Shown: in pieces, positions 3,501 to 57,077 of the stretch
How the letters are laid out: the number at the start of each line of letters is the position of its first letter
How positions within the stretch are numbered: position 1 is the stretch's first letter
Source of the DNA: a virus
Lineage: Duplodnaviria > Caudoviricetes
Virus record (IMG/VR): IMGVR_UViG_3300005611_000002
Coordinates: 130,646 to 194,645 of that record
Reading direction: 5' to 3' (one strand)
Length of the DNA: 64,000 nt
Notes under the pieces: model-generated
What the model was told of the DNA's origin: nothing
Databases searched by the model: none
The model's input: the letters and a program-made list of their open reading frames with translations, nothing else
Translations under genes and position numbers: made by a program

Positions 3501-5993
3501 GGGTCTATTTTGAGCATATGCTTCTTCGGGCGTAAGAGCTGGAACTCCGGGTACAAAAATTTCTGCAATCTTAAGTTGGTCACCAGTTACACTCGATGGT
3601 ACTGAATTTTCTGATTCTTGACCCTTTACGATAGCGGTTCTTCCGTAAGAGTCAATAGTGACAATGTCAGTTCTATTCAGATAAAACTCGTAATCGAGTT
3701 GACCAAATGTATCGTGAGCTGGTGTTAGGACTGTGTTGTTTGCATCAAACGAAGGCGCAATACTCACACTCGTGCTTGAAGAACTGACTGTTGGCGCTGT
3801 CCCTTCTGAAGCAGCATTAGTATATGTGGCACCAGCGATTGGTTCAACAAGTGGTCTAAAATCTACACAATCTCGAAGATTATAAGTAGCACCAGAAGGT
3901 GATACGAAAGGTTGTATTTTGTTCGTTGCTACTTGTCCAGAACCAGTACCGATTGGATAACTGTCAATTGTAAAGAAATAATCTCCAGTTGTGTCATTCA
4001 ATTTGAATGCATTCATCTGAACTGTCATATCACCATCAGAAGGAACAGGGCGACCTGGGATAAACTCGATGTACGAATGGTCGTAGTAATTATTTTTCTG
4101 GTTAGTTCTTAATTTGAAACTTGTTGTGACGTCGTTGTTAGCAGCATCAGTAATCGAAACTACTTCATAGACATCTGGAAAGCCTAGATTGAATTTCGAT
4201 GATGAAGTAGAATCAGTATTCGCGAATGTACATTTCACATATAGTTCAACTGATGTTTTAGTAAATGGAGTTGCGTCTGAAATTCTTTTATTCACGTAAA
4301 CTGTTGCCGTAGCAGAAGTCGTACCAGCAAGTTCTATTTGAAGATCATTGTTAGCGCCAGATAATGAAGTACTTAATACATCAATTTTTTGATTGGAAGA
4401 GTCGACAAACAAAATGTCATCATTGTTTACATTAAAATCTTCTCCAACCGCAGAAGAAATGATTACTGTATTTCCTGAAAGACCGGTCAATTCTCTTTTT
4501 TCACGAACCGGAAGCGAAATACTATCGGTTGACTTGAGACTAACGGCTCCTGTATCAAAAATCATGGAGCCGTTACTTGCTTCATTTAAAACTGAACCAC
4601 TTGCGACAGAAATAACACCCGACGACCCAATGATTTGCTCTACGCCAGAAATTTCATTAGATCCATCTAGACGAATATCGAACAAGAAAATCTTATCATC
4701 AGTAATATTTCGAACTCTTGCAGTACCGGTATTAGCAGACGCACCATTTTGAAGTGTAACTGTCGAAAGAGTATCAATCGGAACAACACCAGTATTTGCA
4801 ATATCAAGAATGTTCAGATAACCGCCGTAATTGAATGAAACTGCTTGATTTGATCTTTCATCAACTGACGTATTTGCAATTGGATCAATATCAAGAAGAA
4901 CTTCAGCAAGATTTTCTACTCGATAACCTTTCACATATGCAATACCACTTCCAACGGAAGCTTTCAGAATATCGTCTCTTCGTATGACCTTTGTTTTAAA
5001 GTCACGCACAATATAGTCACCAGACTCTTCAAATGTGCGGCGAGCCATTTCTTCACCCAGTGCATTATATTGTGATACGTCTCTTAGAAAAACGGCGCTG
5101 CCATTTGAATATCTTGTAAGCGTAAAGAATGTAGTATCAGCATCTGCGTCTAAAGTTGGTAGCGCAGTTAATACTGGAATCAACTTCAAGCGATCTGCGC
5201 CTGGAGCGTTTTCATTTGTGGATCCATTTGCGTTATCAAAAAGCGATGGGTCTTGAAGAGAACTAATCAACCTTTCTTCTACGACGTAACCAATTGAAAC
5301 TCCATCTGGAACATTAGTATATTTTGAAACAACTACCAACTGTTCTTCAGTGAAAAGGAAATGTCCTTTTTGAAAGATAATACCAGGGGCAGCACGAAGA
5401 CCAAACGAATTACCAACTGGGTTTGGAAAATTAGTTACGGAAATAGTAGTTTCAAGTGTCTCAGTCACATTGGTTGTAGTTCCAATGTCATAAGAACTAA
5501 TTTTATAAATTTCAAGAGTTTCACCACCCTGAAATACCTTATTTCCGGCAGACGTTGAAGTGTAGTCGATGTAAAAAGTGTTGAGATCTGGATCTCGCGT
5601 TTCAAAGCCCCGTGTCGCTGCGATCACTTGCGCACGAACTCCACTCACAAGGCCTCTTAGTTCATATACGTTGTTTCTTTCATATATTTGACCGCCATCA
5701 GAAACAGTATCTGTAGAACCAACATAAACAGCTGGATCAAAACCGCCTTCATTTGTAACTTTGACGTACTTGAGATCAGAAAGTTCGGTGAAGGTACAAC
5801 CCTTGATGATTGAACCCTCTTTGTAAATATTGTCTCCAAACTGTTCAATCTGATTCTGCAGAACAGTTTGAAGTTGAGTCAATTCTCGAGCTTGAACCGC
5901 ATACGAAGGCTTGAATAGAACTCTGTAATACTGGTTTTCGAGATCAAAATCATCGAAATAAGGCGCGGTACTAAGATTCGTATTAATTGGCAT
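576..5993 (-). CDS. Large virion structural protein, VrlC/DUF4815-like
   Basis: N-terminal PYFDDFD...YYRVLFKP..AVQARELTQLQ and APGADRLK motifs typical of this T4-like family; follows gp8. Confidence 0.8.
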   Translation of the reverse strand: MPINTNLSTAPYFDDFDLENQYYRVLFKPSYAVQARELTQLQTVLQNQIEQFGDNIYKEGSIIKGCTFTELSDLKYVKVTNEGGFDPAVYVGSTDTVSDGGQIYERNNVYELRGLVSGVRAQVIAATRGFETRDPDLNTFYIDYTSTSAGNKVFQGGETLEIYKISSYDIGTTTNVTETLETTISVTNFPNPVGNSFGLRAAPGIIFQKGHFLFTEEQLVVVSKYTNVPDGVSIGYVVEERLISSLQDPSLFDNANGSTNENAPGADRLKLIPVLTALPTLDADADTTFFTLTRYSNGSAVFLRDVSQYNALGEEMARRTFEESGDYIVRDFKTKVIRRDDILKASVGSGIAYVKGYRVENLAEVLLDIDPIANTSVDERSNQAVSFNYGGYLNILDIANTGVVPIDTLSTVTLQNGASANTGTARVRNITDDKIFLFDIRLDGSNEISGVEQIIGSSGVISVASGSVLNEASNGSMIFDTGAVSLKSTDSISLPVREKRELTGLSGNTVIISSAVGEDFNVNNDDILFVDSSNQKIDVLSTSLSGANNDLQIELAGTTSATATVYVNKRISDATPFTKTSVELYVKCTFANTDSTSSSKFNLGFPDVYEVVSITDAANNDVTTSFKLRTNQKNNYYDHSYIEFIPGRPVPSDGDMTVQMNAFKLNDTTGDYFFTIDSYPIGTGSGQVATNKIQPFVSPSGATYNLRDCVDFRPLVEPIAGATYTNAASEGTAPTVSSSSTSVSIAPSFDANNTVLTPAHDTFGQLDYEFYLNRTDIVTIDSYGRTAIVKGQESENSVPSSVTGDQLKIAEIFVPGVPALTPEEAYAQNRPAYGVKVTTKGTKAYKMRDIEKIDRKVDALKYYVLLTALEIETTNLNILDENGLSRFKNGIIVDPFNDLNIANVESADFNAAIDFAEKSLMPAVKSFPINMKYKSNSSGTIFPSTADARAATLSRDQDVSIINQPYATEFRNCVSNFYSYRGVGSLDPEYDALYDVTTNPVSIDIDLVTPLSQFADAINEVVPLTATSREVLNSRLTGRNRRQDGNQITTTTTFTDTVRETFNTLQVSGEQISETPVGDFVSNINFNPFMAPREVNVYMSGLRPNTRHYFFFDEVDVNQFVAPGDDVDSAAEVHRNGNFGDPITSNENGVITAVFDIPAETFFVGDRKLEIVDVDAYNTIASASTSYGSVTYRAYNFSIERSSLTASTRQPTNFIEQITSERNVTRRITTIEQREERWEEDGGDPLAQTFFIKQGMGRGSDTVFASKIDLYFKRKSSTYGVTVEIREVLNGYPSYQNVPFSRVHLTPSEVSISDDASAVTTITFPAPVRLDVEKEYAVVVIPDAANPDYLIFTSKVGGTDLTPGDNQGRSIVQDWGDGVLFTSTNNRAWQSYQDEDIKFNLYRHNFNVSSGTVTLTNNDHEFITTENNIGRFKTGEVVYTIHPSDSNTSNTVSISPGNNEITGTNLSTTYATDDYILVDDGASNKQLFKVVSANSSVIVADRPASFSANAAGNPVTIGTLRHYDFRYPNFMILEGSSATASRKFEASDTIYGFDSSSVATITSMDNIEFSYIQPMIMRTNDSVTSTSLSGTFVDPNNTTNTYTQLMQFNDKTTFGKTGMTVFSKSNDIARTKTMDLTVSLANASNVTSTPFIDIETSSVLAYQWKITNSSDTTAKYISRTVELAENLDAEDFQIFVTGYRPNGTDIKVYIRPQAANDPEVFDVNNWVELELTQGINTYSSISNIYDFREFVYRVPDSAKTAGVLNYTNDLGSFSGYRRFAIKIELLSENIFKAPRLLDYRGIALT

Positions 5994-13812: not shown

Positions 13813-15732
13813 TTATTCTATTGTAAATCCTGAACCTAAGATATTTCTCACATAATTTCTAGTTTCTCTGAATGGCGGTACACCGCCATATCTTTCAACG
13901 TTACCCGGTCCAGCATTATATGCAGCTAGAGCGTAATCCCATCTTCCAGTTTCATTATACATTGCAGCCAAATATTCGGCTCCAAATCGTAAGTTTTCAG
14001 TGGGATTATTAATATCTTGAATTGGAGTAACTCCATAACCTGGTTGTCTGCCTGTCGCCGGCACAATTTGTGCATAACCCGTTGCATTACTACTCCTATT
14101 GAATGCATTAGGATTAAAGTTTGATTCTTGAGCAATAAGCCGCAGATATAAATTCCTTGGAATACCTGCAGCATCTGCTGCAGCATAGATAGCATCTATT
14201 TGTTGTTGTGTTGGATTAGCTCTATCCATGCCTTCTACGCCCGGCGGCAATTGAGAAAGATCTTGAACGACTGGTTCATTACCCGAAGAACCTCTTAATC
14301 CGTCATCGGGGCCTGGAGTGATTTCAGCATTTTCAACTTGGTCATCAGTAGAAGCCGCACCTGTCGTTCCAACGTTCGGTCCGTTTCTACCACTATTAGA
14401 ACTCGAGATACTCGTAGATTTTGCAGGTGGTTCTGGCGCTTCAACAGATTTAGAAGGATCAGCAGCTGTTGCATCTGATGCACCATCAGGAGCTATAGCC
14501 CTCCCATCAGCGAGGAAAACTAAGTCGTCGACATTTACAGCCGTAGCATCAATATTCACGAGTACACCACCACCAATTTTTACATTATTACCTTTTACTC
14601 CAGTAGTATCCGCAGATTCTATTTTAGTATTTTGTGCTTTCAAATTCAGCGTACTGTCACACTGAATAAAGATGTTATCTCCGGCTTTCATATTGAATGA
14701 ATTTGTTGCGTCTTGGAAGATTGCAATACCAGACTTGAAATGCATAGACTCGCCAGTTTCAGCAAATAGACCTTTCGCTGCTTTGAGATTGATACCAGAC
14801 ACGTTTGATTCCATTCTCAATTGAGCACCACGAATTTGAACTTCTTCACTCGCATTGATGGTAGATTGCCCGCCAACGCCGAGTATATGATTGCCGTGTA
14901 CTACTTGAATCAGATCTCCATTGATTTCCTCGATCTTATTGCCGTCAACATAAACGTGAGAATCACCCATAATCGTAACTGAGCTTCGACCTCCGATATA
15001 CACCATGTTGTTTTTGTCATTTACTTCCTGATGATCACCGTAAGATTTATCAGTTCTTGTTCCATTTGAATCAACTTGAATATAAGATCCGCGATGCCAG
15101 ATCATCAATCTTTCTGCGTTTGGCGTAGAATCGAGTTCAACTGTCGTTTTATTATCAGGTGAACAATAAACATTGTTGTGAGGATACTTTGCGTTATATG
15201 CTGTCGCATTTTCTGACCATGATGTAAAGCTTTCGTTGGGCGCGTTTGGGTTTGAAGCTACTTTTACATCTTTTATACAATTCATTTCATGTTCTAAAGG
15301 ATGTCCCTCGTGAGGAGATTCTCCAGTAGCAAGAGGATGACACGCCGGTTGACCAACGCGTTCCGGCGCTGAGTCTGCGCTTTGAGCCTTTTCATCTTCG
15401 TTTTTTGGATGCTCACCTATGCCATCACGGTCAGGATCTAGCGTGTCGCTCATAAATGTTGGTATAGTACCAAGTATAAGAGGTTGCTGGGCATCTCGAC
15501 CGTCAAGAAAGACACCGAATACCCAATGATTTTGTTGTGGTAGTATATTGAAGCTATAATTACCAGCAACAACGAGAGCCCATGGTAGATCTTCAGTTGG
15601 TATTTGCTCTTTCGTGCCATGCACACCAAACGCTCGAACTTGAACTCGAGACTCATAACGAGGATCAATATTGTTTTCTACGATACCAACAAAAAAGAGT
15701 GGATTACGGATACCTACACCAGTTTCAAACAT
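13813..15732 (-). CDS. gp5: Baseplate hub/spike gp5 with C-terminal soluble lytic transglycosylase domain
   Basis: N-terminal OB fold (GIVE...DP....RVQVRAFGVH, LPWA, GVFLDG..AQQP), beta-helix repeats, C-terminal ESNFN...GYAQI...AAYNAGPG...ETRNYV. Confidence 0.88.
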   Translation of the reverse strand: MFETGVGIRNPLFFVGIVENNIDPRYESRVQVRAFGVHGTKEQIPTEDLPWALVVAGNYSFNILPQQNHWVFGVFLDGRDAQQPLILGTIPTFMSDTLDPDRDGIGEHPKNEDEKAQSADSAPERVGQPACHPLATGESPHEGHPLEHEMNCIKDVKVASNPNAPNESFTSWSENATAYNAKYPHNNVYCSPDNKTTVELDSTPNAERLMIWHRGSYIQVDSNGTRTDKSYGDHQEVNDKNNMVYIGGRSSVTIMGDSHVYVDGNKIEEINGDLIQVVHGNHILGVGGQSTINASEEVQIRGAQLRMESNVSGINLKAAKGLFAETGESMHFKSGIAIFQDATNSFNMKAGDNIFIQCDSTLNLKAQNTKIESADTTGVKGNNVKIGGGVLVNIDATAVNVDDLVFLADGRAIAPDGASDATAADPSKSVEAPEPPAKSTSISSSNSGRNGPNVGTTGAASTDDQVENAEITPGPDDGLRGSSGNEPVVQDLSQLPPGVEGMDRANPTQQQIDAIYAAADAAGIPRNLYLRLIAQESNFNPNAFNRSSNATGYAQIVPATGRQPGYGVTPIQDINNPTENLRFGAEYLAAMYNETGRWDYALAAYNAGPGNVERYGGVPPFRETRNYVRNILGSGFTIE

Positions 15733-52193: not shown

Positions 52194-52628
52194 ATGGATA
52201 AAGAACAACTCATATCACAGATGAAGGTGATCCTCGCATCTTCATTCTCATTCTATCTCAAAGCACACAACTATCACTGGAATGTTACCGGTCCGAACTT
52301 TGCTCAATATCACACTTTCTTTGGTGATCTCTACACAGAAGTATGGGAATCACTTGATACCACTGCAGAGGAAATTCGCAAGCTAGGATCTTTTGCTCCA
52401 GGTTCACTCTCAAGATATTCAGAAATCACACGTATCGAAGATGAGTTGAACATTCCAGATGCTTCAGTCATGTTCGGAAGACTCGCAGCAGACAATGACA
52501 AACTGCTGGAACTTCTCTACCGCGCTCGAGCAACTGCAGATGAAGTCGATGCTGCGGGTACTCTTGACTATCTCGAAGCTCGCATTGGTATCCATGAAAA
52601 ATACGCCTGGATGCTAAAAAGTTTCTAA
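52194..52628 (+). CDS. dps: Dps-family ferritin-like protein
   Basis: HNYHWNV.G..F...H..F...Y, D..AE.IR, HEK..WML. Confidence 0.93.
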   Translation: MDKEQLISQMKVILASSFSFYLKAHNYHWNVTGPNFAQYHTFFGDLYTEVWESLDTTAEEIRKLGSFAPGSLSRYSEITRIEDELNIPDASVMFGRLAADNDKLLELLYRARATADEVDAAGTLDYLEARIGIHEKYAWMLKSF

Positions 52629-52698
52629 AAAGTGAAAAAAGATGTTGACATTCACGAAAAGTGATATAAATATATACCTATACAACAAAGGAATAACC

Positions 52699-52785
52699 AT
52701 GACTAACCCCATTATGAAAAGCATTTATACCATTTGTGCATATAAGCATGAACGCTTTGTGCTGCTGGAGGGCTATGGTGGTTAA
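52699..52785 (+). CDS. Putative attenuator leader peptide (28 aa)
   Basis: AAAGGA RBS; MTNPIMKSIYTICAYKHERFVLLEGYGG; contains CTGGAGGG complementary to the terminator 5' arm. Confidence 0.65.
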   Translation: MTNPIMKSIYTICAYKHERFVLLEGYGG

Positions 52786-52810
52786 CTAGTTTAGTAAGTT
52801 AACGAGTTCC

Positions 52811-52845
52811 AAACCCTCCAGGCGAAAGTCTCGGAGGGTTTTTTA
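52811..52845 (+). terminator. Intrinsic terminator (attenuator)
   Basis: AAACCCTCC-loop-GGAGGGTTT followed by a T run. Confidence 0.85.
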
Positions 52846-52849
52846 TTGG

Positions 52850-52878
52850 TTGACAAACGGTCCGAATCAGTATAATAT
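52850..52878 (+). promoter_or_regulatory. Sigma70-type promoter with GAATC in the spacer, upstream of tRNA array
   Basis: TTGACA-aacggtccGAATCagta-TAATAT. Confidence 0.75.
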
Positions 52879-52904
52879 CAAAATATAAGGAATGAAAATT
52901 CCAC

Positions 52905-52916
52905 GCTCTTTGAAAA
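52905..52916 (+). promoter_or_regulatory. boxA-like antitermination element
   Basis: GCTCTTTGAAAA shortly after the promoter, matching the rrn boxA pattern. Confidence 0.55.
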
Positions 52917-52961
52917 TTTATGTTTGTCTTAGGCAAAAGCCGATAATAGACTGGAAATAGA

Positions 52962-53118
52962 AAATTCTGTTTTCACATGCACTATATGCTGGTGTAATAC
53001 GATCGGTTCGAATCCGGAGGAAGGTATAGGCACGAGAAGACTGGTTCGACTCCAGTTGAAAGCCGGGGTGGTAAATGAAGGTTCGATTCCTTCGGTAGTG
53101 CAGCTGAAAACAGAGTTT
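52962..53118 (+). ncRNA. Structured RNA with three T-loop hairpins
   Basis: Closing stems CTGTTTTCA/TGAAAACAG and TGCACTA/TAGTGCA enclose three GG-TTCGANT-CC hairpins. Confidence 0.65.
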
Positions 53119-53158
53119 GGCGAGGTATGCAAGCGGTCGAAGCAGATTTGAAATCTGG
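53119..53158 (+). pseudogene. Truncated tRNA-like 5' fragment (Ser UGA-like)
   Basis: D-arm-like TGC-AAGCGGTCGAA-GCA and CAGA-TTTGAAA-TCTG, no T arm or acceptor 3' strand. Confidence 0.4.
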
Positions 53159-53195
53159 TTTATTATAAATACCTTTATAAAAAGGAGTATTAATA

Positions 53196-53621
53196 ATGAA
53201 GCAGAAACACGATCAAATCTCGGATAATCAAATTATAGAATGCTTTAATAAACATAAACATATAGGTAAAATATCTCATGAATTGAACTTGCCTCATATA
53301 AGTGTCTGGAGACGATTAAAAAAACTTGGGTTAAAAACGGAAAAATCTGGGTCTGGTAAAAAAATAGAATTGGAAGAAATATTAGATGGAAAACATCCAT
53401 ATTATCAAACGTTTAAACTAAAAAATCGAATACTTAAAGAAGGTTTATTTGAATATAAATGTGTTAGTTGCAACAATGAAGAATGGATGGGAAATAAAAT
53501 TCCTCTACAATTAGACCATATTAACGGAGATTCTTCTGATCATAGAAAAGATAATTTGAGATTACTTTGTCCAAATTGTCACAGCCAAACAGATACTTGG
53601 TGTGGTAAAAACAAAAAATGA
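53196..53621 (+). CDS. HNH endonuclease
   Basis: C..C, LQLDHING...D....NLRLLCPNCH; TATAAATA at 53164. Confidence 0.9.
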   Translation: MKQKHDQISDNQIIECFNKHKHIGKISHELNLPHISVWRRLKKLGLKTEKSGSGKKIELEEILDGKHPYYQTFKLKNRILKEGLFEYKCVSCNNEEWMGNKIPLQLDHINGDSSDHRKDNLRLLCPNCHSQTDTWCGKNKK

Positions 53622-53709
53622 GGGGATACGGCGAAGTTGGAGAGTCGCGGCAGTCTGTAAAACTGTTCCTGAAAAGGTGAGTTGGTTCGAATCCATCCCA
53701 CTCCCACCA
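53622..53709 (+). tRNA. tRNA-Tyr(GUA), imperfect acceptor stem
   Basis: D stem GCGA/TCGC, anticodon arm GCAGT-CTGTAAA-ACTGT, long variable arm, TTCGAAT, CCA end. Confidence 0.65.
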
Positions 53710-53715
53710 AAACAA

Positions 53716-53790
53716 GGTGCTATAGTTCAGCGGTAGAACACACGGCTCATATCCGTCATGTCAGAGGTTCAAATCCTCTTAGCACCACCA
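53716..53790 (+). tRNA. tRNA-Met or Ile2 (CAU)
   Basis: GGTGCTA/TAGCACC acceptor, CTCATAT loop, CCA. Confidence 0.88.
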
Positions 53791-53791
53791 T

Positions 53792-53869
53792 GTCCCCATG
53801 GTCTAGCGGTCTAGGACGCTCCCCTTTCAAGGGAGAGGGCGCTCGGTTCAAATCCGGCTGGGGATACCA
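53792..53869 (+). tRNA. tRNA-Glu(UUC)
   Basis: GTCCCCA/TGGGGAT acceptor, CTCCC-CTTTCAA-GGGAG, CCA. Confidence 0.85.
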
Positions 53870-53877
53870 AAAATAAC

Positions 53878-53953
53878 GCAACTGTGGTGAGGCTGGTGCT
53901 CACGCCTGGTTGAAGCCCAGGAGACGAATGTTCAATTCATTCCGGTTGCACCA
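53878..53953 (+). tRNA. tRNA-Phe(GAA)
   Basis: GCAACTG/CGGTTGC acceptor, CCTGG-TTGAAGC-CCAGG, CCA. Confidence 0.85.
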
Positions 53954-53968
53954 TATAAAGGAAAGCTT

Positions 53969-54154
53969 ATGCAGAATGATTTAAAACTAATCGCTAGAAA
54001 GCTAAAAGAAGCACGAAAGCTTCCTGAAAACAATCCAACCGAGTATAATCATAAGCAAATGATACTTAATCACTGGAAGCTTGAGAGATACATGCTCATG
54101 AAAGCGATTGAACAAGAGATCAGAACACGTGAATATTTTGCAAATAATAGTTGA
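53969..54154 (+). CDS. Hypothetical protein inside tRNA array
   Basis: 61-aa ORF with AAGGA RBS. Confidence 0.55.
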   Translation: MQNDLKLIARKLKEARKLPENNPTEYNHKQMILNHWKLERYMLMKAIEQEIRTREYFANNS

Positions 54155-54179
54155 CATTCATTTAGAATCAGTATAGATT
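54151..54179 (+). promoter_or_regulatory. Sigma70-type promoter with GAATC in the spacer
   Basis: TTGACA-ttcatttaGAATCagta-TAGATT. Confidence 0.65.
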
Positions 54180-54202
54180 GATAATATATAAAGGAGATGC
54201 AA

Positions 54203-54346
54203 ATGAAACGAAAACCTAAGATACTCAAACCAAGAAATCCTGACCTGGTTGCAGCAATGTTTCGTAAGGCAGGTGCTCATGGTAAGAGCAGAAAAGCTGA
54301 ACGTAGAGCAGCTAAAGTTTCTCTACTAAAAACAGTGGACCCGTAG
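54203..54346 (+). CDS. Small basic protein (47 aa), stop codon inside tRNA-Lys
   Basis: Read by hand: MKRKPKILKPRNPDLVAAMFRKAGAHGKSRKAERRAAKVSLLKTVDP; AAGGAG RBS. Confidence 0.7.
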   Translation: MKRKPKILKPRNPDLVAAMFRKAGAHGKSRKAERRAAKVSLLKTVDP

Positions 54347-54410
54347 CTGAGTGGTGTAGCAGGAGACTTTTAATCTCTAGACGGGAGTTCGATTCTCCTC
54401 GGGTTCACCA
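54337..54410 (+). tRNA. tRNA-Lys(UUU)
   Basis: GGACCCG/CGGGTTC acceptor, GGAGA-CTTTTAA-TCTCT, CCA. Confidence 0.88.
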
Positions 54411-54517
54411 TTACTTTGATGATACACTGTCTTGGTTTGGCTTTGGTCTAGTCCCGATAGCAAAGCCCCAGATCAAGTCCAACGGGTAAAGACTTGCAGT
54501 GTATCTTCTAAGTAATG
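54411..54517 (+). ncRNA. Structured RNA, three-way junction with potential kissing loops
   Basis: GATACACTG/CAGTGTATC encloses GGCTTTG/CAAAGCC and CAAGTC/GACTTG hairpins; loops carry CCCG and CGGG. Confidence 0.55.
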
Positions 54518-54521
54518 AATA

Positions 54522-54588
54522 TCCCGTGACTGGTGGTGCGCAGACTGCAGCTGTGCTGAAGACGGTTCAATTCCGTAACACGGGGCCA
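54522..54588 (+). pseudogene. Degenerate tRNA-like element (GCA anticodon, reduced D arm)
   Basis: CCCGTG/CACGGG acceptor, ACGG-TTCAATT-CCGT T arm, CCA end, only 67 nt. Confidence 0.45.
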
Positions 54589-54597
54589 AAATAGAAT

Positions 54598-54748
54598 AGG
54601 CAGCGGCAACTGCCTTGACTGAGAGACTACTCCTCTACGTTTTGCCGAATGTAGGTTGCGGTAGATTGCTTCGTCTAGTGGATAGGACGCCCTGCGCATC
54701 CACGGGGAGACACGGGTTCGATTCCTGTAGCAACATTGCTCTCAGTCA
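54598..54748 (+). ncRNA. Structured RNA containing an embedded tRNA-like domain
   Basis: TGACTGAGAG/CTCTCAGTCA 10-bp stem encloses D arm, T arm and acceptor-like stem; upstream hairpin loop CGGCAA complementary to TTGCCG. Confidence 0.55.
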
Positions 54749-54756
54749 GAAATTAC

Positions 54757-54830
54757 TGTCCTATAGCTCAACGGTAGAGTGAACGACTGATAATCGTTAG
54801 ATGGAAGTTCGATTCTTCCTAGGACAACCA
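54757..54830 (+). tRNA. tRNA-Ile(GAU)
   Basis: TGTCCTA/TAGGACA acceptor, AACGA-CTGATAA-TCGTT, CCA. Confidence 0.87.
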
Positions 54831-54839
54831 AAATAAAAT

Positions 54840-54921
54840 GGTGTGGTGACGGAACGGTAACGTGCTGGATTGCAAATCCAAGGCCTGAAAAGAGTGAGTT
54901 CGACTCTCACCCACACTTCCA
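54840..54921 (+). tRNA. tRNA-Cys(GCA) with enlarged variable region
   Basis: GGTGTGG/CCACACT acceptor, U discriminator, TGGA-TTGCAAA-TCCA, CCA. Confidence 0.8.
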
Positions 54922-54923
54922 AT

Positions 54924-54995
54924 GGCCCCATAGATTATGGGTTAGATCACTGCCCTTTCAAGGCGGAGAATCGGGTTCGAGTCCCGGTGGGGCTA
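54924..54995 (+). tRNA. tRNA-Glu(UUC), second copy, no encoded CCA
   Basis: GGCCCCA/TGGGGCT acceptor, CTGCC-CTTTCAA-GGCGG, TTCGAGT. Confidence 0.82.
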
Positions 54996-55053
54996 CATAG
55001 AGAACATGAAATGTATAAATAGTACTGAAGAGGTAAAACTATAGGTACATTTC

Positions 55054-55671
55054 ATGTTCTACACAATTTATAAAATAACTAATAAGATCAACGGCAAAAT
55101 CTACATTGGTAAACATCAGACCAAAGACCTAAATGATGGATATATGGGCTCAGGTAAACTCATAATAGCAGCTATTGAAAAATATGGAATTGATAATTTT
55201 GAAAAAGAAATTCTCTTTCAATTCGATAGTGAAACTGATATGGACACCAAAGAAGCTGAACTGGTAACTGACGAATTTGTGAAAGAAGATACCAACTATA
55301 ATCTTTGCCCTGGCGGTAAAGGTGGTTGGGGGTATATCAACTCTAATGATTTATCGCCAAGATTTGCAAACTATGTAGGCACTAAAAAGTACAAAGAATG
55401 GTCAGCAAAGGGTGGCAAAAAAACAGGAAGAGTGAATATCACTAATGCCCATTTAGAAGGTAAAATAAGATATGATACCTTTACTGGTAAAACACATAGT
55501 GATGAAACCAAAAGAAAAATATCCGAAGCAAACTCTAAAATAACTGGTTCTAAAAACTCTCAATATGGTACTATGTGGATTACTAATGGTAAAGAGAATA
55601 AAAAAATAAAAAAAGATGTCGATAGTATACCAGAAGGATGGTATAAAGGTAGAAAAATAATGCTTCCGTAG
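55054..55671 (+). CDS. Seg-like GIY-YIG homing endonuclease with NUMOD3
   Basis: TIYKITN.INGKIYIGKH, YMGSG, YNL..GG.GG, GKTHSDETKRKIS; TATAAATA at 55014. Confidence 0.92.
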   Translation: MFYTIYKITNKINGKIYIGKHQTKDLNDGYMGSGKLIIAAIEKYGIDNFEKEILFQFDSETDMDTKEAELVTDEFVKEDTNYNLCPGGKGGWGYINSNDLSPRFANYVGTKKYKEWSAKGGKKTGRVNITNAHLEGKIRYDTFTGKTHSDETKRKISEANSKITGSKNSQYGTMWITNGKENKKIKKDVDSIPEGWYKGRKIMLP

Positions 55672-55738
55672 CTCAACTGAATAGAGCATCTGGCTACGAA
55701 CCAGAAGGTTAGGGGTTTGAGTCCTCTCGGAAGTTCCA
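55662..55738 (+). tRNA. tRNA-Arg(ACG)
   Basis: GCTTCCG/CGGAAGT acceptor, TCTGG-CTACGAA-CCAGA, CCA. Confidence 0.88.
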
Positions 55739-55810
55739 AAAAATGTAAAATAGTGGTTGACATACATAAAAAATATGTTAGATTTAATCTATGATGTGAA
55801 CGAAGTGAAT

Positions 55811-55871
55811 TGGATGAATTCAGCAACTCAAAAACGCTATAATTTATGGTCTTAGCGGACAAAATCATCCA
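55811..55871 (+). ncRNA. Short Y-RNA-like element (stem + CAGCAA motif)
   Basis: TGGATGA-ATTCAGCAA...AAAA-TCATCCA with an internal CGCTA/TAGCG hairpin; same frame as 56362-56488. Confidence 0.5.
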
Positions 55872-55883
55872 GAAAGGAATAAC

Positions 55884-56207
55884 ATGACTTGGAACCTTTT
55901 TATTGACGATGAACGTTTTCCACCAAATGATGGTAAGGACTGGGTTATTGCCAGAGACGGTTCTCGAGTATTAAAAGAGTTTTTAGACCGTGGAATGCCA
56001 AGCTATATTAGCTTCGACCACGACCTAGGACCGGAAAGCGGTACTGGCTATGACATTGCTAAACTTCTTGTAGATATTGATATGAGAACTACAGAAGAAC
56101 AATATCGCTTTCCACAAGATTTTGACTTCTATGTACATAGTCAGAATCCTATAGGTAAGAAAAACATCGAGTCTTACCTTAAAAACTATCTTGTACAAAA
56201 AACATGA
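55884..56207 (+). CDS. Cyclic-phosphate-processing receiver-like (divergent REC) domain protein
   Basis: LFIDDER, ISFDHDLG, TGYD, VHSQNP.G motifs. Confidence 0.75.
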   Translation: MTWNLFIDDERFPPNDGKDWVIARDGSRVLKEFLDRGMPSYISFDHDLGPESGTGYDIAKLLVDIDMRTTEEQYRFPQDFDFYVHSQNPIGKKNIESYLKNYLVQKT

Positions 56208-56333
56208 AACCTTGGTTGGTTTCAGCCCAGCAATCATGAAGTCTGTTCTCTCTGTAGAAGACCTTGAAGACTTCACTCCGTTCAATGTGATGGTGAAAAC
56301 CCTCATGAATGAGCGTTACGATTACTAATCGGT

Positions 56334-56349
56334 TAGGCCTTCGGGCCTA
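56334..56349 (+). other. cUUCGg hairpin
   Basis: TAGGCC-TTCG-GGCCTA; lacks a clear T run, so a processing/stabilising hairpin or weak terminator. Confidence 0.5.
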
Positions 56350-56361
56350 GCCTCCAATCTT

Positions 56362-56488
56362 TGGATCATTACAGCAACAAAACAGCTATGCATGAGAAGC
56401 ACGTGTTTGTGGTGTTCGAGTCCCACCGCCCCGACCATGACGGGGTGTAGGCAAATGGTAAAGCCGCGTAAAGCAAAAAGTTGATCCA
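56362..56488 (+). ncRNA. YrlA-like RNA with a circularly permuted tRNA domain
   Basis: TGGATCA/TGATCCA closing stem; order T arm, acceptor 3' strand + ACCA, acceptor 5' strand, D arm. Confidence 0.65.
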
Positions 56489-56510
56489 GTTAAACATTAT
56501 GAGGAGTGAC

Positions 56511-57077
56511 ATGAAAGCAAAACTTAAGTTCATTTATTCATCCATGAACAGCGGAAAGAGCTTGTCACTCCTCTCTAAAAACTTTATGCTAAGAGAAAAA
56601 GGGTTTCATACTGTCCTTATGAAACCGGCTATCGACAGTCGAAGCAACGATTCTATTACTACGCGTCTCGGTATAAGTGATCCTTGTATCGTATTGGAAT
56701 CAAAGGATAATCCCGAAAAAATCATAAAAGAAAAGTATACTCATCGGATAGACTACATTCTAGTTGATGAAGCGCAGTTTCTCACGAAGGAGCAGGTCTG
56801 GAACCTAGCATATCTTGTAGACTATTCTAACATAAACGTTCGTTGCTACGGTCTAAAACTAGATTGGCAGGGTGAGTTCTTTACTGGTTCTGAAGAGCTC
56901 ATGAAAATCGCAGATGAGCTGGAACCAATCGAAAACTACTGTCGTCACAACAAGGGTGCTCGAGCATTTTTTCATATGAAGCTCGGTGGTTCTCAAGAGA
57001 GTGTAGAAATCGGTGAAGAAGACTTATACGAGTCCGTATCTCGTAAAAAATGGAAAGAATGGTATGACAAAAATTGA
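56511..57077 (+). CDS. tk: Thymidine kinase
   Basis: MNSGKS, KP.ID.R, VDEAQFL, YGL..D..G..F.GS motifs; GAGGAG RBS before ATG 56511. Confidence 0.93.
   Translation: MKAKLKFIYSSMNSGKSLSLLSKNFMLREKGFHTVLMKPAIDSRSNDSITTRLGISDPCIVLESKDNPEKIIKEKYTHRIDYILVDEAQFLTKEQVWNLAYLVDYSNINVRCYGLKLDWQGEFFTGSEELMKIADELEPIENYCRHNKGARAFFHMKLGGSQESVEIGEEDLYESVSRKKWKEWYDKN

What the first reader, a model, noticed from the sequence alone, without database searches (positions are those of the whole stretch)
52699..56488. tRNA island that looks like a regulated translation-defence system: attenuator, tRNAs, tRNA mimics, Y-like RNAs and an RNA-end-processing protein
Seen: in 3.8 kb there is a leader-peptide attenuator, a boxA, nine tRNAs, three large structured RNAs (two built from tRNA parts), two degenerate tRNAs, two stem+CAGCAA elements (one with a permuted tRNA domain) and a divergent receiver-domain gene. 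Established: hosts use anticodon nucleases (PrrC, VapC, RloC types) against phage, phage tRNAs can compensate, and Ro60/Y RNAs and this receiver family occur with RNA repair genes. Inference: the island senses loss of charged tRNA and releases replacement tRNAs, decoys and repair components as one unit.
Basis: partly seen in the sequence, partly recalled or inferred. Interest (0 to 1): 0.88.

Follow-up and report, generated by a model that had tools for sequence, protein, structure and literature searches.

The report
Phage tRNA island with tRNA mimics
One of two tRNA gene clusters of an uncultured T4-like phage carries a probable tRNA-shortage sensor, several covariation-supported RNAs that imitate tRNA, and the scar of a lost Ro60-like gene replaced by a small enzyme gene, but it is a mosaic of modules, not one regulated defence unit.

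Summary
There are 8 canonical tRNAs plus a degenerate tRNA-Tyr. A 28-codon leader ORF has an antiterminator and a terminator, and a boxA-like leader follows. The tRNA-like RNAs and two 'stem+CAGCAA' RNAs are real, and a cREC receiver-domain gene is present.

- **Attenuator:** the phage's second tRNA cluster has its own leader ORF. Each leader is written in the amino acids of the tRNAs behind it (Fisher p=0.013, and 0.003 in the nearest relative).
- **Permuted tRNA-like RNA (56360-56491):** 98% of cells pair and 10 pairs show compensatory changes. It belongs to a large phage family.
- **Ro60-like partner:** five of five related phages with this RNA family encode a DUF2828/DUF7788 protein, whose model matches Ro60. 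This phage keeps only its last 36 codons, and cREC sits in its place.
- **Single sensing unit:** not supported. There are three internal sigma-70-type promoters and mobile gene insertions. cREC is absent from the nearest relative's island and lies away from tRNAs in eight other phages.

Function is inferred throughout. This scan has already noted both the attenuators and the CAGCAA RNAs on other phage DNA. I found no paper that describes either.

The parts
52645..52672 (+). Promoter region of the leader: TTGACA (52645-52650) and a T4-type late-promoter motif TATAAATA (52665-52672)
   Evidence: Read from the sequence. TATAAATA also precedes the leader ORFs of the relative and of the second cluster.
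52699..52785 (+). Leader ORF 1 (28 codons, MTNPIMKSIYTICAYKHERFVLLEGYGG). 15 of its codons are read by the island's own tRNAs.
   Evidence: conserved in L011 with an in-frame indel; all 7 downstream specificities covered, P=0.04; Fisher p=0.013 against leader 2.
52765..52848 (+). Antiterminator strand CTGGAGGG (52765-52772) and intrinsic terminator (stem 52814-52838, T-run 52839-52845)
   Evidence: RNAfold gives a -22 kcal/mol terminator. The transcript cut before the 3' arm folds into the antiterminator, and L011 does the same in a different register.
52850..52878 (+). Sigma-70-type promoter of the tRNA array (TTGACA-17-TAATAT)
   Evidence: 10 of 12. Conserved in L011 and in the second-cluster leader.
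52889..52916 (+). boxB-like hairpin (52889-52902) followed by boxA-like CGCTCTTTGAAAA (52904-52916)
   Evidence: Conserved in 4 leaders: window, genome 680-710, L011, L134.
52964..53118 (+). Leader RNA: a long closing stem of about 20 bp (RNase III-like substrate) enclosing three T-arm-like hairpins (about 53003-53018, 53040-53056, 53077-53094)
   Evidence: Fold z=-3.4. The stem is kept with compensatory G:C to A:U in L011 and is perfect (18 bp) in the paralogous leader. The interior is not conserved.
53196..53621 (+). HNH-type homing endonuclease gene, inserted against the 5' edge of the tRNA-Tyr-like gene
   Evidence: Weak Pfam HNH hits. 68-70% DNA identity to HNH endonuclease genes in T4-like tRNA clusters. 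Absent at this site in L011.
53619..53705 (+). Degenerate type-II tRNA-Tyr(GTA)-like gene
   Evidence: Relaxed ARAGORN only. 23 bits against tRNA-Sec, below threshold. The L011 orthologue has a perfect acceptor stem; here two pairs are broken.
53716..53953 (+). tRNA-Met(CAT), tRNA-Glu(TTC), tRNA-Phe(GAA)
53969..54346 (+). Two small ORFs (61 aa; 49 aa, basic) with an internal TTGACA promoter at 54151. The second ORF overlaps the start of tRNA-Lys.
   Evidence: The 3' part is conserved in L011. No Pfam family.
54337..54410 (+). tRNA-Lys(TTT)
54408..54519 (+). tRNA-Lys-linked long hairpin: a 20-bp stem starting in the CCA, with an interior that differs in every copy
   Evidence: fold. The arms are letter-identical in 11 other viral contigs. 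In 10 of them the element directly follows a tRNA-Lys 3' end; the eleventh (L129) holds tandem copies.
54521..54596 (+). Mini tRNA-like element: acceptor stem, one extra hairpin, T arm, encoded G-CCA end
   Evidence: Read from the sequence. 88% paralog at genome 1807-1880. Not a tRNA by Rfam or ARAGORN.
54596..54752 (+). tRNA-mimic module: hairpin with a CGGCAA loop, a 10-bp long-range stem, a second hairpin, and a cloverleaf with an 8-nt 'anticodon' loop lacking U33
   Evidence: RNAalifold on 4 homologues gives 50 pairs, 18 of them compensatory. Paralog at genome 2163-2318; homologues in L020 and L125.
54757..54996 (+). tRNA-Ile(GAT), tRNA-Cys(GCA), second tRNA-Glu(TTC)
   Evidence: The second Glu is 94.7% identical to L011's tRNA-Glu.
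54998..55671 (+). Seg-like GIY-YIG/NUMOD3 homing endonuclease gene (55054-55671). A 15-bp hairpin buries its start codon, with TATAAATA in the loop.
   Evidence: NUMOD3 above cut-off. 68-73% DNA identity to seg-like genes. Hairpin read.
55662..55738 (+). tRNA-Arg(ACG)
55757..55784 (+). Sigma-70-type promoter of the cREC transcription unit
55811..55871 (+). CAGCAA-handle RNA 1 (no tRNA cargo): P1 TGGATGA/TCATCCA. It ends 12 nt before the cREC start codon.
   Evidence: Orthologue in L011 at 15185-15251, upstream of the Ro60-like gene.
55884..56207 (+). cREC_REC (cyclic-phosphate-processing receiver) gene, 107 aa, in the slot of the Ro60-like gene
   Evidence: Pfam PF20274, E 5e-21, full length. 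Only copy in the genome.
56218..56328 (+). Stub of the Ro60-like DUF2828/DUF7788 gene (last 36 codons and the stop)
   Evidence: tblastn of the L011 protein matches only residues 475-510, at 86% identity.
56331..56352 (+). GC-rich hairpin after the stub, without a clear T-run
   Evidence: Read. Identical in L011.
56360..56491 (+). CAGCAA-handle RNA 2 with a circularly permuted tRNA-like cargo. The order is: P1, UUACAGCAAC loop, P2, a 7-nt AU-NNN-AA loop, stem, T arm, a 7-bp acceptor hairpin with ACCA in its loop, D arm, P1'.
   Evidence: 12 homologues: 98.3% of cells paired and 10 pairs compensatory, against 0-2 in slid controls. The model R1 scores it at 154.8 bits.

Best explanation
The span is cluster 1 of two tRNA gene clusters of a complete 194.6-kb uncultured T4-like phage. 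It is built from four separable modules.

(1) Entry control (partly shown, partly inferred). Shown: a late-type promoter, a 28-codon leader ORF written largely in the codons of the tRNAs downstream, and an antiterminator/terminator pair. Inferred: ribosomes that decode the leader slowly leave the antiterminator free and let transcription run into the array, while fast decoding terminates it. Directly after the terminator, a sigma-70-type promoter with a boxB/boxA leader and a long double-stranded stem gives unconditional, probably early, transcription and processing.

(2) The array: 8 working tRNAs plus a damaged tRNA-Tyr, invaded by an HNH and a GIY-YIG homing endonuclease gene.

(3) tRNA-like non-coding RNAs, co-transcribed with the tRNAs and probably cut out by the same enzymes: a hairpin tied to tRNA-Lys, a CCA-ended mini-helix, and a cloverleaf mimic.

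(4) A Ro60-type module: two 'handle' RNAs (terminal stem plus UUACAGCAAC), one carrying a permuted tRNA-like body. In the nearest relative they flank a Ro60-like protein gene. Here that gene was replaced by cREC, a predicted 2',3'-cyclic-phosphate enzyme, leaving a 36-codon stub.

The likely common theme is keeping translation supplied, and perhaps protected, during infection. The modules are separately transcribed and separately exchanged between phages.
For: Genome and tRNA layout.

Attenuator:
- Both orthologues of both leaders fold into an antiterminator when the terminator's 3' arm is withheld.
- Leader 1 covers all 7 specificities of cluster 1. Leader 2 (genome 390-467) has 20 of 24 codons from, and covers 10 of 10 of, the amino acids exclusive to cluster 2 (P=0.0004 against proteome windows).
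- Fisher test of leader against cluster-exclusive residues: p=0.013 here and p=0.003 in the relative.
- Further small ORF plus terminator pairs precede tRNA arrays in unrelated contigs.

Modularity: internal promoters. The HNH gene and cREC are absent from the closest relative's island, and that island has different ORFs.

RNAs: covariation for the permuted tRNA-like RNA and for the mimic module. At least 30 family members lie in gaps between tRNAs of other phages.

Ro60 link: DUF2828 is present in 5 of 5 related phages that carry the RNAs. In L011 it is flanked by handle RNAs, and its model matches TROVE/Ro60 structures over the full length, E 1.9e-9. Only the stub remains here.

cRec prediction and its linkage to RNA ligases: PMC7824862.
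Against:
- The codon-matching statistics are moderate for leader 1 alone (P about 0.02-0.05). Only two orthologous pairs of leaders were available.
- The promoter just after each terminator would mask any attenuation unless it is shut off late.
- The Ro60-like model is of medium confidence (pLDDT 69, 5-sequence alignment).
- With no Ro60-like protein in this phage, the two handle RNAs here might be relics, although they are better conserved than the neighbouring coding DNA (85-89% against about 80%).
- The interior of the 52964-53118 leader is not conserved and may be only decayed tRNA sequence.
Confidence: 0.6

Rival explanations
1. One reading: one regulated translation-defence operon. The attenuator senses loss of charged tRNA and releases replacement tRNAs, decoy RNAs and the repair protein together.
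For: A plausible attenuator lies at the head of the island. All features are on one strand. tRNA mimics with anticodon-like loops exist. RNA-repair-type proteins occur in this island and in the relative's island: cREC here, HAD_SAK_2 and a Ro60-like protein there.
Against: Three TTGACA promoters lie inside the island, one of them immediately after the terminator. The cREC unit has its own promoter 3 kb downstream. cREC is a replacement found only in this phage, and it is unlinked to tRNAs or handle RNAs in 8 other phages. Homing endonuclease genes interrupt the array. Nothing shows that any host nuclease is targeted.
Confidence: 0.1
2. Ordinary tRNA cluster with debris. The non-tRNA elements are decaying tRNA pseudogenes and processing spacers, the leader ORF is an unrelated small gene with its own terminator, and the CAGCAA elements here are relics of a lost Ro60-like module.
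For: The Tyr-like gene is damaged. The interior of the 52964-53118 element and of the Lys-linked hairpin is not conserved. The Ro60-like gene is deleted. Leader 1 statistics alone are weak.
Against: Compensatory changes across phages maintain the mimic module and the permuted tRNA-like RNA. The 56217-56498 stretch is more conserved than flanking genes. The hairpin arms next to tRNA-Lys are identical in 12 phages. The second leader matches its cluster with P=0.0004.
Confidence: 0.2
3. The RNA at 56360-56491 is a two-piece, CCA-ended tRNA-like molecule, of the kind seen in two-piece tmRNA or in Mycobacterium smegmatis YrlA. RNase P and 3' trimming would open the acceptor hairpin, and the product would be aminoacylated or used as a substrate mimic, independent of any Ro60-like protein.
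For: It has a 7-bp acceptor hairpin. ACCA directly after the 3' strand is conserved in 12 of 13 close homologues, while the rest of the loop varies from 3 to about 75 nt. The same phage makes a permuted tmRNA. M. smegmatis YrlA is cut by RNase P and receives CCA (PMC4201824).
Against: Many more distant family members lack CCA. There is no G3:U70 pair and no tag reading frame. There is no evidence of cleavage.
Confidence: 0.1

Closest known systems
Leader-peptide transcription attenuators of amino-acid operons (trpL, hisL, pheL, thrL, ilvL of Proteobacteria; my own knowledge)
   Same: A short translated leader enriched in regulatory codons, an antiterminator that a translating ribosome can mask, and an intrinsic terminator before the regulated genes.
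   Different: The regulated genes are tRNA genes, not biosynthetic enzymes. The leader samples 7-10 different amino acids once or a few times each instead of a run of one. It sits behind a phage late-promoter motif, and a constitutive promoter bypasses it. I found no paper on this for tRNA genes.
YrlA-type bacterial and phage Y RNAs with Ro60/Rsr (Rfam RF02553; Chen et al. 2014, PMC4201824)
   Same: [quoted passage not shown] In relatives the RNA lies next to a protein with a Ro60-like fold.
   Different: It scores 14.8 bits against a threshold of 69. It has no GNCGAAN0-1G motif; a UUACAGCAAC loop takes its place. The partner family is DUF2828/DUF7788, not Pfam TROVE, and this phage lacks it.
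Two-piece (permuted) tmRNA
   Same: The gene order is T arm, acceptor 3' strand, ACCA, an intervening segment of variable length, then the acceptor 5' strand.
   Different: There is no tag reading frame, no pseudoknots and no G3:U70 pair. The RNA returns at once to a terminal stem.
Stable RNAs of the T4 tRNA cluster (species 1 and 2, rnaC/rnaD; my own knowledge) and Seg/HNH homing endonucleases in T4/T5 tRNA regions
   Same: Small stable RNAs of unknown role are co-encoded with phage tRNAs, and free-standing homing endonuclease genes lie between tRNA genes (annotations under).
   Different: No sequence comparison with rnaC or rnaD was made here. The elements here fall into several families with tRNA-like folds.
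rrn-type boxA/boxB antitermination leaders (my own knowledge)
   Same: Promoter, small hairpin, then a boxA-like CGCTCTTTGAAAA (10 of 13 to TGCTCTTTAACAA), then a long processing stem.
   Different: It heads a phage tRNA operon. Nus-factor binding is untested.
Class I RNAs of dictyostelids (Rfam RF01414; PMC7919456)
   Same: A short terminal stem with a conserved motif just 3' of its 5' strand and a variable remainder. From memory, the amoebal motif also contains UUACAGCAA.
   Different: The Rfam model does not find any of the three copies. The organisms are unrelated. The resemblance is only a lead.

Membership tests
Leader-peptide transcription attenuator | Short ORF with a ribosome-binding site upstream of the regulated genes | tested here: met
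   52699-52785 with AAGGA 7 nt upstream. In-frame conservation in L011.
Leader-peptide transcription attenuator | Leader enriched in codons whose decoding reports on the regulated product | tested here: met
   Fisher p=0.013 (own) and 0.003 (relative). Leader 2 has 20 of 24 codons and 10 of 10 coverage, P=0.0004. Leader 1 alone is only P about 0.02-0.05.
Leader-peptide transcription attenuator | Intrinsic terminator plus a mutually exclusive antiterminator that overlaps the leader | tested here: met
   RNAfold of full and truncated transcripts for 4 leaders. In silico only.
Leader-peptide transcription attenuator | Read-through depends on translation and on the supply of charged tRNA | not testable with these tools
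   Needs reporter or in vitro transcription-translation assays.
YrlA Y RNA (RF02553) | Match to the family covariance model at its gathering score | tested here: not met
   14.8 bits against 69 for genome 187026-187133. Not listed in the region scan at E<=5.
YrlA Y RNA (RF02553) | T arm, closed acceptor-like stem, then D arm, inside a terminal stem | tested here: met
YrlA Y RNA (RF02553) | GNCGAAN0-1G motif on the 5' strand (PMC4201824) | tested here: not met
   The 5' strand reads TGGATCATTACAGCAAC.
YrlA Y RNA (RF02553) | Encoded next to a Ro60/TROVE gene | tested here: not met
   No TROVE or DUF2828 gene in this genome, only a 36-codon stub. The feature is met in relative L011 by a protein with a Ro60-like fold.
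Phage CAGCAA-handle RNAs (undescribed family; seen before by this scan) | Covarying 7-bp terminal stem beginning NGG, C(A/C)GCA(A/T) 2-4 nt after its 5' strand, an A-rich 3' side, and a variable cargo | tested here: met
   Three copies in this genome with compensatory P1 changes. Over 30 members in other phages.
tRNA (RF00005) | Covariance-model score above the gathering threshold | tested here: met
   8 genes score 50.9-71.9 bits. Not met by the Tyr-like gene or by the elements at 54521-54596, 54596-54752 and 56360-56491.
cREC_REC (PF20274) | Full-length Pfam match above the cut-off | tested here: met
   75.7 bits against 27, profile positions 1-88 of 88. Enzyme activity is only predicted in the literature (PMC7824862).
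Ro60/TROVE proteins (for the DUF2828/DUF7788 protein of the relative and the stub here) | TROVE helical-repeat ring plus a vWA domain | tested here: inconclusive
   The Pfam TROVE model does not hit and there is no PDB hit by sequence. The AF2 model (pLDDT 69) matches TROVE/Ro60 chains over about 500 columns, E 1.9e-9 to 1e-5, TM 0.4-0.56.
rrn-type boxA | Match to the boxA consensus just downstream of the promoter | tested here: met
   CGCTCTTTGAAAA at 52904-52916, conserved in 4 leaders. The consensus is quoted from memory.
Two-piece tmRNA | Tag reading frame and alanine identity (G3:U70) | tested here: not met
   ARAGORN calls tmRNA only at genome 12767-13233. Pair 3:70 of the acceptor is G:C in all 12 homologues.

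The most novel reading that the evidence does not exclude
The phage meters its own tRNA supply: each of its two tRNA clusters is gated late in infection by a leader peptide that samples the codons those tRNAs read. It also carries a Ro60-type RNA module whose protein was naturally swapped for a predicted cyclic-phosphate enzyme. That swap would mean the handle RNAs, which display tRNA bodies and anticodon-like loops, work with interchangeable RNA-end-processing or RNA-surveillance proteins, as baits or scaffolds in the contest over cleaved tRNAs.
Probability: 0.2. Interest if true: 0.9.

Novelty: new variant of a known kind. Interest (0 to 1): 0.72.

Why it matters
If the leaders work as read, phages regulate tRNA genes by the decoding speed of the matching codons. 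I could not find this control logic described for tRNA genes. It can be tested directly with reporter fusions.

The tRNA-like RNAs add at least three covariation-supported RNA families to the 'empty' gaps of phage tRNA arrays, which are routinely left unannotated.

This phage is also a natural experiment. It keeps the Y-RNA-like handle RNAs but has lost the Ro60-like protein to a cREC gene. It can therefore show whether these RNAs need that protein, and whether cRec enzymes act in the same pathway.

Tried and rejected
- Near-identical phage records: none. A distant search found only homing endonuclease genes and tRNAs.
- cREC as an anchor for orthologous islands: rejected. Its 8 homologous loci have no tRNA within 6 kb and no handle RNAs. 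Their neighbours are nucleotide-metabolism genes, PTH2 and Band_7.
- Ro60/TROVE, RtcB, DUF2828 and HAD_SAK_2 in this genome: none. An Rnl1-type ligase and AAA_33 kinases exist, but far from the island.
- Reading the permuted RNAs as true permuted tRNA genes: ARAGORN with introns on rotated sequences gave inconsistent anticodons and intron sites, so I did not adopt this.
- Rfam YrlA and Dictyostelium Class I models: below threshold or no hit.
- More copies of the leader/terminator and of the boxA leader by exact pattern: only the one relative.
- Sequence search of the DUF2828 protein against PDB: nothing.
- Papers on DUF2828: irrelevant.
- A loose regular expression for handles across the genome gave mostly chance hits. 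Only three copies survive inspection.

Full report
**Setting.** The window is the last 64 kb of a complete 194,645-bp IMG/VR virus record with direct terminal repeats. Homing endonuclease genes, thymidine kinase and the only distant DNA matches point to a T4-like phage. No close relative is in the annotated phage collection. The genome has 27 canonical tRNA genes in two clusters and a permuted tmRNA. The finding covers cluster 1 (genome 183.3-187.1 kb). Cluster 2 lies at genome 1.2-10 kb, about 9 kb further on across the terminal repeat.

**Anatomy.** Everything lies on the + strand between a Dps/ferritin gene (52194-52628) and thymidine kinase (56511-57077).
- ARAGORN and Rfam agree on eight tRNAs.
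- A ninth, type-II Tyr(GTA)-like gene (53619-53705) is found only with relaxed settings and has two broken acceptor pairs. Its orthologue in the nearest relative has a perfect acceptor stem.
- An HNH endonuclease ORF (53196-53621) abuts its 5' end and is missing at that site in the relative.
- A Seg-like GIY-YIG/NUMOD3 ORF (55054-55671) overlaps the start of tRNA-Arg.
- There are also two small ORFs and the cREC_REC gene.

The consensus scan finds three TTGACA promoters inside the span, at 52850, 54151 and 55757.

**Nearest relative.** One IMG/VR contig (L011, L073 and L134 are parts of it) has Dps at 83% and TK at 86% identity. Its island is 7.3 kb long and has a partly different tRNA set: Met, Glu, Arg, Phe, Lys, Lys, Cys, Ile, His, Gly. 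Its ORFs also differ and include HAD_SAK_2, an RNA-repair-type phosphatase, and a DUF2828/DUF7788 protein. It has no cREC.

**Attenuator.** The 28-codon ORF at 52699-52785 has a ribosome-binding site and lies behind TTGACA and a T4-type late motif TATAAATA. It is conserved in the relative with many substitutions and an in-frame indel.
- It is followed by a -22 kcal/mol hairpin and a T-run.
- If the 3' arm of that hairpin is withheld, the transcript folds so that CTGGAGGG (52765-52772, inside the last codons) pairs with the terminator's 5' arm. The relative does the same in a shifted register.
- A ribosome near the stop codon would mask this strand. One stalled at codons 5-20 would not.

The decisive test came from outside the window. 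Upstream of cluster 2 there is a second TATAAATA, a 25-codon ORF (genome 390-467), a terminator, two TTGACA promoters and the same boxA leader. The relative has the orthologous arrangement, and both fold into antiterminators.
- Leader 1 is rich in I, M, K, Y, C, E, R and F, which are the cluster 1 tRNAs.
- Leader 2 reads MLSTVAQNNTLDWSGTPSAGVLEVF and covers all ten amino acids exclusive to cluster 2, including Trp.
- Against windows drawn from the phage's own proteome, leader 2 gives P=0.0004 for count and coverage together. Leader 1 gives about 0.02.
- Fisher tests of leader against cluster-exclusive residues give 0.013 here and 0.003 in the relative.
- A crude scan of the other fetched loci found further small ORF plus terminator pairs in front of tRNA arrays, two of them behind TATAAATA.

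I therefore think the attenuator reading is more likely right than wrong, at roughly 55-60%. Because a strong sigma-70-type promoter follows each terminator, attenuation can matter only for transcripts from the upstream promoter, which is probably late. That timing is inference.

**boxA leader.** After the 52850 promoter come a small hairpin, CGCTCTTTGAAAA, and a stem of about 20 bp (52964-53118). All are conserved in four leaders, with a compensatory change in the stem. The three T-arm-like hairpins inside the stem are not conserved: the relative has two and the paralogous leader has none. The fold is better than shuffles (z=-3.4). I read this as an rrn-like antitermination and processing leader. 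The boxA consensus is quoted from memory.

**tRNA-like RNAs between Lys and Ile.**
- **54408-54519:** a 20-bp stem begins in the CCA of tRNA-Lys. Its arms recur letter for letter in 11 other viral contigs. In 10 of them the element directly follows a tRNA-Lys 3' end; the eleventh (L129) holds tandem copies. The 60-70-nt interior is different each time. The search demanded exact arms, so it offers no covariation evidence.
- **54521-54596:** this has an acceptor stem, a T arm and an encoded G-CCA. It has an 88% paralog in cluster 2.
- **54596-54752:** this has a paralog in cluster 2 and homologues in two other phages. RNAalifold predicts a hairpin with a conserved CGGCAA loop, a 10-bp long-range stem, a second hairpin and a full cloverleaf. 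Of 50 pairs, 18 show compensatory changes in only four sequences. The 'anticodon' loop is 5-8 nt and lacks U33, so these are mimics and not decoding tRNAs. ARAGORN's 'tRNA-Asp' at genome 2229-2303 is one of them.

**CAGCAA-handle RNAs.** The element at 56360-56491 has a 7-bp terminal stem and an unpaired UUACAGCAAC. Next come a short helix, a 7-nt AU-NNN-AA loop and a stem. The cargo then runs as a T arm, a 7-bp acceptor hairpin whose loop starts with ACCA, and a D arm.
- An exact 19-mer found it in 5 other viral and about 10 metagenome contigs.
- On 12 sequences, 98.3% of cells pair and 10 of 29 pairs have compensatory changes, against 0-2 in slid controls.
- A covariance model then found at least 17 more distant members, all in gaps between tRNA genes of large phages. 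Their terminal stems covary freely (GGATCA, GGAACA, GGCTAG, GGTTCG and others). Their cargos keep features of particular tRNAs, for example a long variable arm with a GUA loop, or a GUC loop with GCCA.
- This genome has three handles: 55811-55871, 56362-56488 and genome 1508-1564.
- The Rfam YrlA model scores the element at 14.8 bits (threshold 69), and the Dictyostelium Class I model misses all three.

So the layout resembles YrlA (PMC4201824), but membership fails.

**The Ro60-like gene and cREC.** Earlier notes of this scan pointed to DUF2828. I tested that lead here.
- This genome has no TROVE and no DUF2828 hit. All five related phage records that carry the RNA family have a DUF2828 gene.
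- In the nearest relative the gene (L011 15452-16882, DUF2828 plus DUF7788) is preceded by three handles, is followed by the orthologue of the 56360-56491 RNA, and has one more handle further downstream.
- An AlphaFold model from a 5-sequence alignment (pLDDT 69) has TROVE/Ro60 chains as its top ten matches over about 500 columns. These include a Thermus phage Ro60, Deinococcus Rsr, and human and Xenopus Ro60.
- tblastn of that protein on this genome matches only residues 475-510, at window 56218-56325, immediately after the cREC stop codon.

So cREC, with its ribosome-binding site (55874-56216), replaced the rest of the Ro60-like gene and two of the three upstream handles. cRec was defined by comparative genomics as a predicted 2',3'-cyclic phosphate or cADPr-processing domain linked to RNA ligases (PMC7824862). 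No enzymology is cited there. Elsewhere cREC homologues sit among nucleotide-metabolism genes, away from tRNAs and handles. The swap may or may not be functional.

**Verdict.** The claim of one sensing-and-release unit does not hold. The best-supported picture is a mosaic:
- a codon-matched attenuator plus a constitutive boxA promoter in front of a tRNA array;
- homing endonuclease invasions;
- three families of tRNA-like RNAs;
- a Ro60-type RNA module whose protein gene was replaced.

Both the attenuators and the CAGCAA RNAs have been noted by this scan on other phage DNA. I found no publication on either. No expression data could be obtained.

Noticed in passing
genome 390-530 (outside the window; L102:390-530): Second leader ORF (25 codons) with a terminator, behind TATAAATA and in front of tRNA cluster 2. 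Its amino acids match that cluster's tRNAs.
   Followed up: yes
genome 12767-13233 (L102): Permuted (two-piece) tmRNA gene, tag ANTNAAPKALALAA. The relative has one too (L134:11048-11452).
   Followed up: no
window 54998-55060: A 15-bp hairpin buries the start codon of the GIY-YIG gene, and a TATAAATA late-promoter motif lies in its loop. Only late transcripts would expose the start, as is known for some T4 genes.
   Followed up: no
L129:774-875 and flanks: The tRNA-Lys-linked hairpin occurs there as tandem copies. Each has the same arms and a different interior.
   Followed up: partly
L091:651-850, L088:2348-2544, L025:2676-2900, L092:1056-1248, L016:18413-18593: In these handle RNAs the acceptor loop holds a 50-80-nt insert forming a GGATAC...GTATC hairpin followed by TTTGAT. 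This resembles the arms of the tRNA-Lys-linked hairpin (GATACAC...GTGTATC).
   Followed up: no
L076:~4835-4960, L093, L100: A non-permuted counterpart of the 56360-56491 cargo. It has the same D arm and the same GCACGTGTTT before the T arm, but open acceptor ends and a closed, enlarged anticodon arm.
   Followed up: partly
window 56390-56400 (and alignment A5 columns 31-41): A 7-nt loop AU-NNN-AA is closed by GC/GC, with one compensatory CC/GG. Its middle triplet differs among close homologues (GAG, UGG, UAG, CAG, UGA), like an anticodon loop. Its meaning is unexplained.
   Followed up: partly
genome 2229-2303 (L102): ARAGORN's 'tRNA-Asp(gtc)' here is a member of the cloverleaf-mimic family, with loop UGGUCUG and no U33. 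The real tRNA-Asp is at 4162-4235.
   Followed up: partly
genome 2855-2968 (L115): Best hit of the Rfam YrlA model in the genome (26.7 bits, below threshold). It overlaps the 3' half of tRNA-Ala and could be a tRNA-junction artefact or another mimic.
   Followed up: no
window 53792-53869 and 54924-54996: Two different tRNA-Glu(TTC) genes. The second is 94.7% identical to the relative's single tRNA-Glu; the first has diverged.
   Followed up: no
L011:11660-12181: The relative's island carries a HAD_SAK_2 ('Swiss army knife' RNA-repair phosphatase) gene directly before tRNA-Arg. This genome has none.
   Followed up: partly
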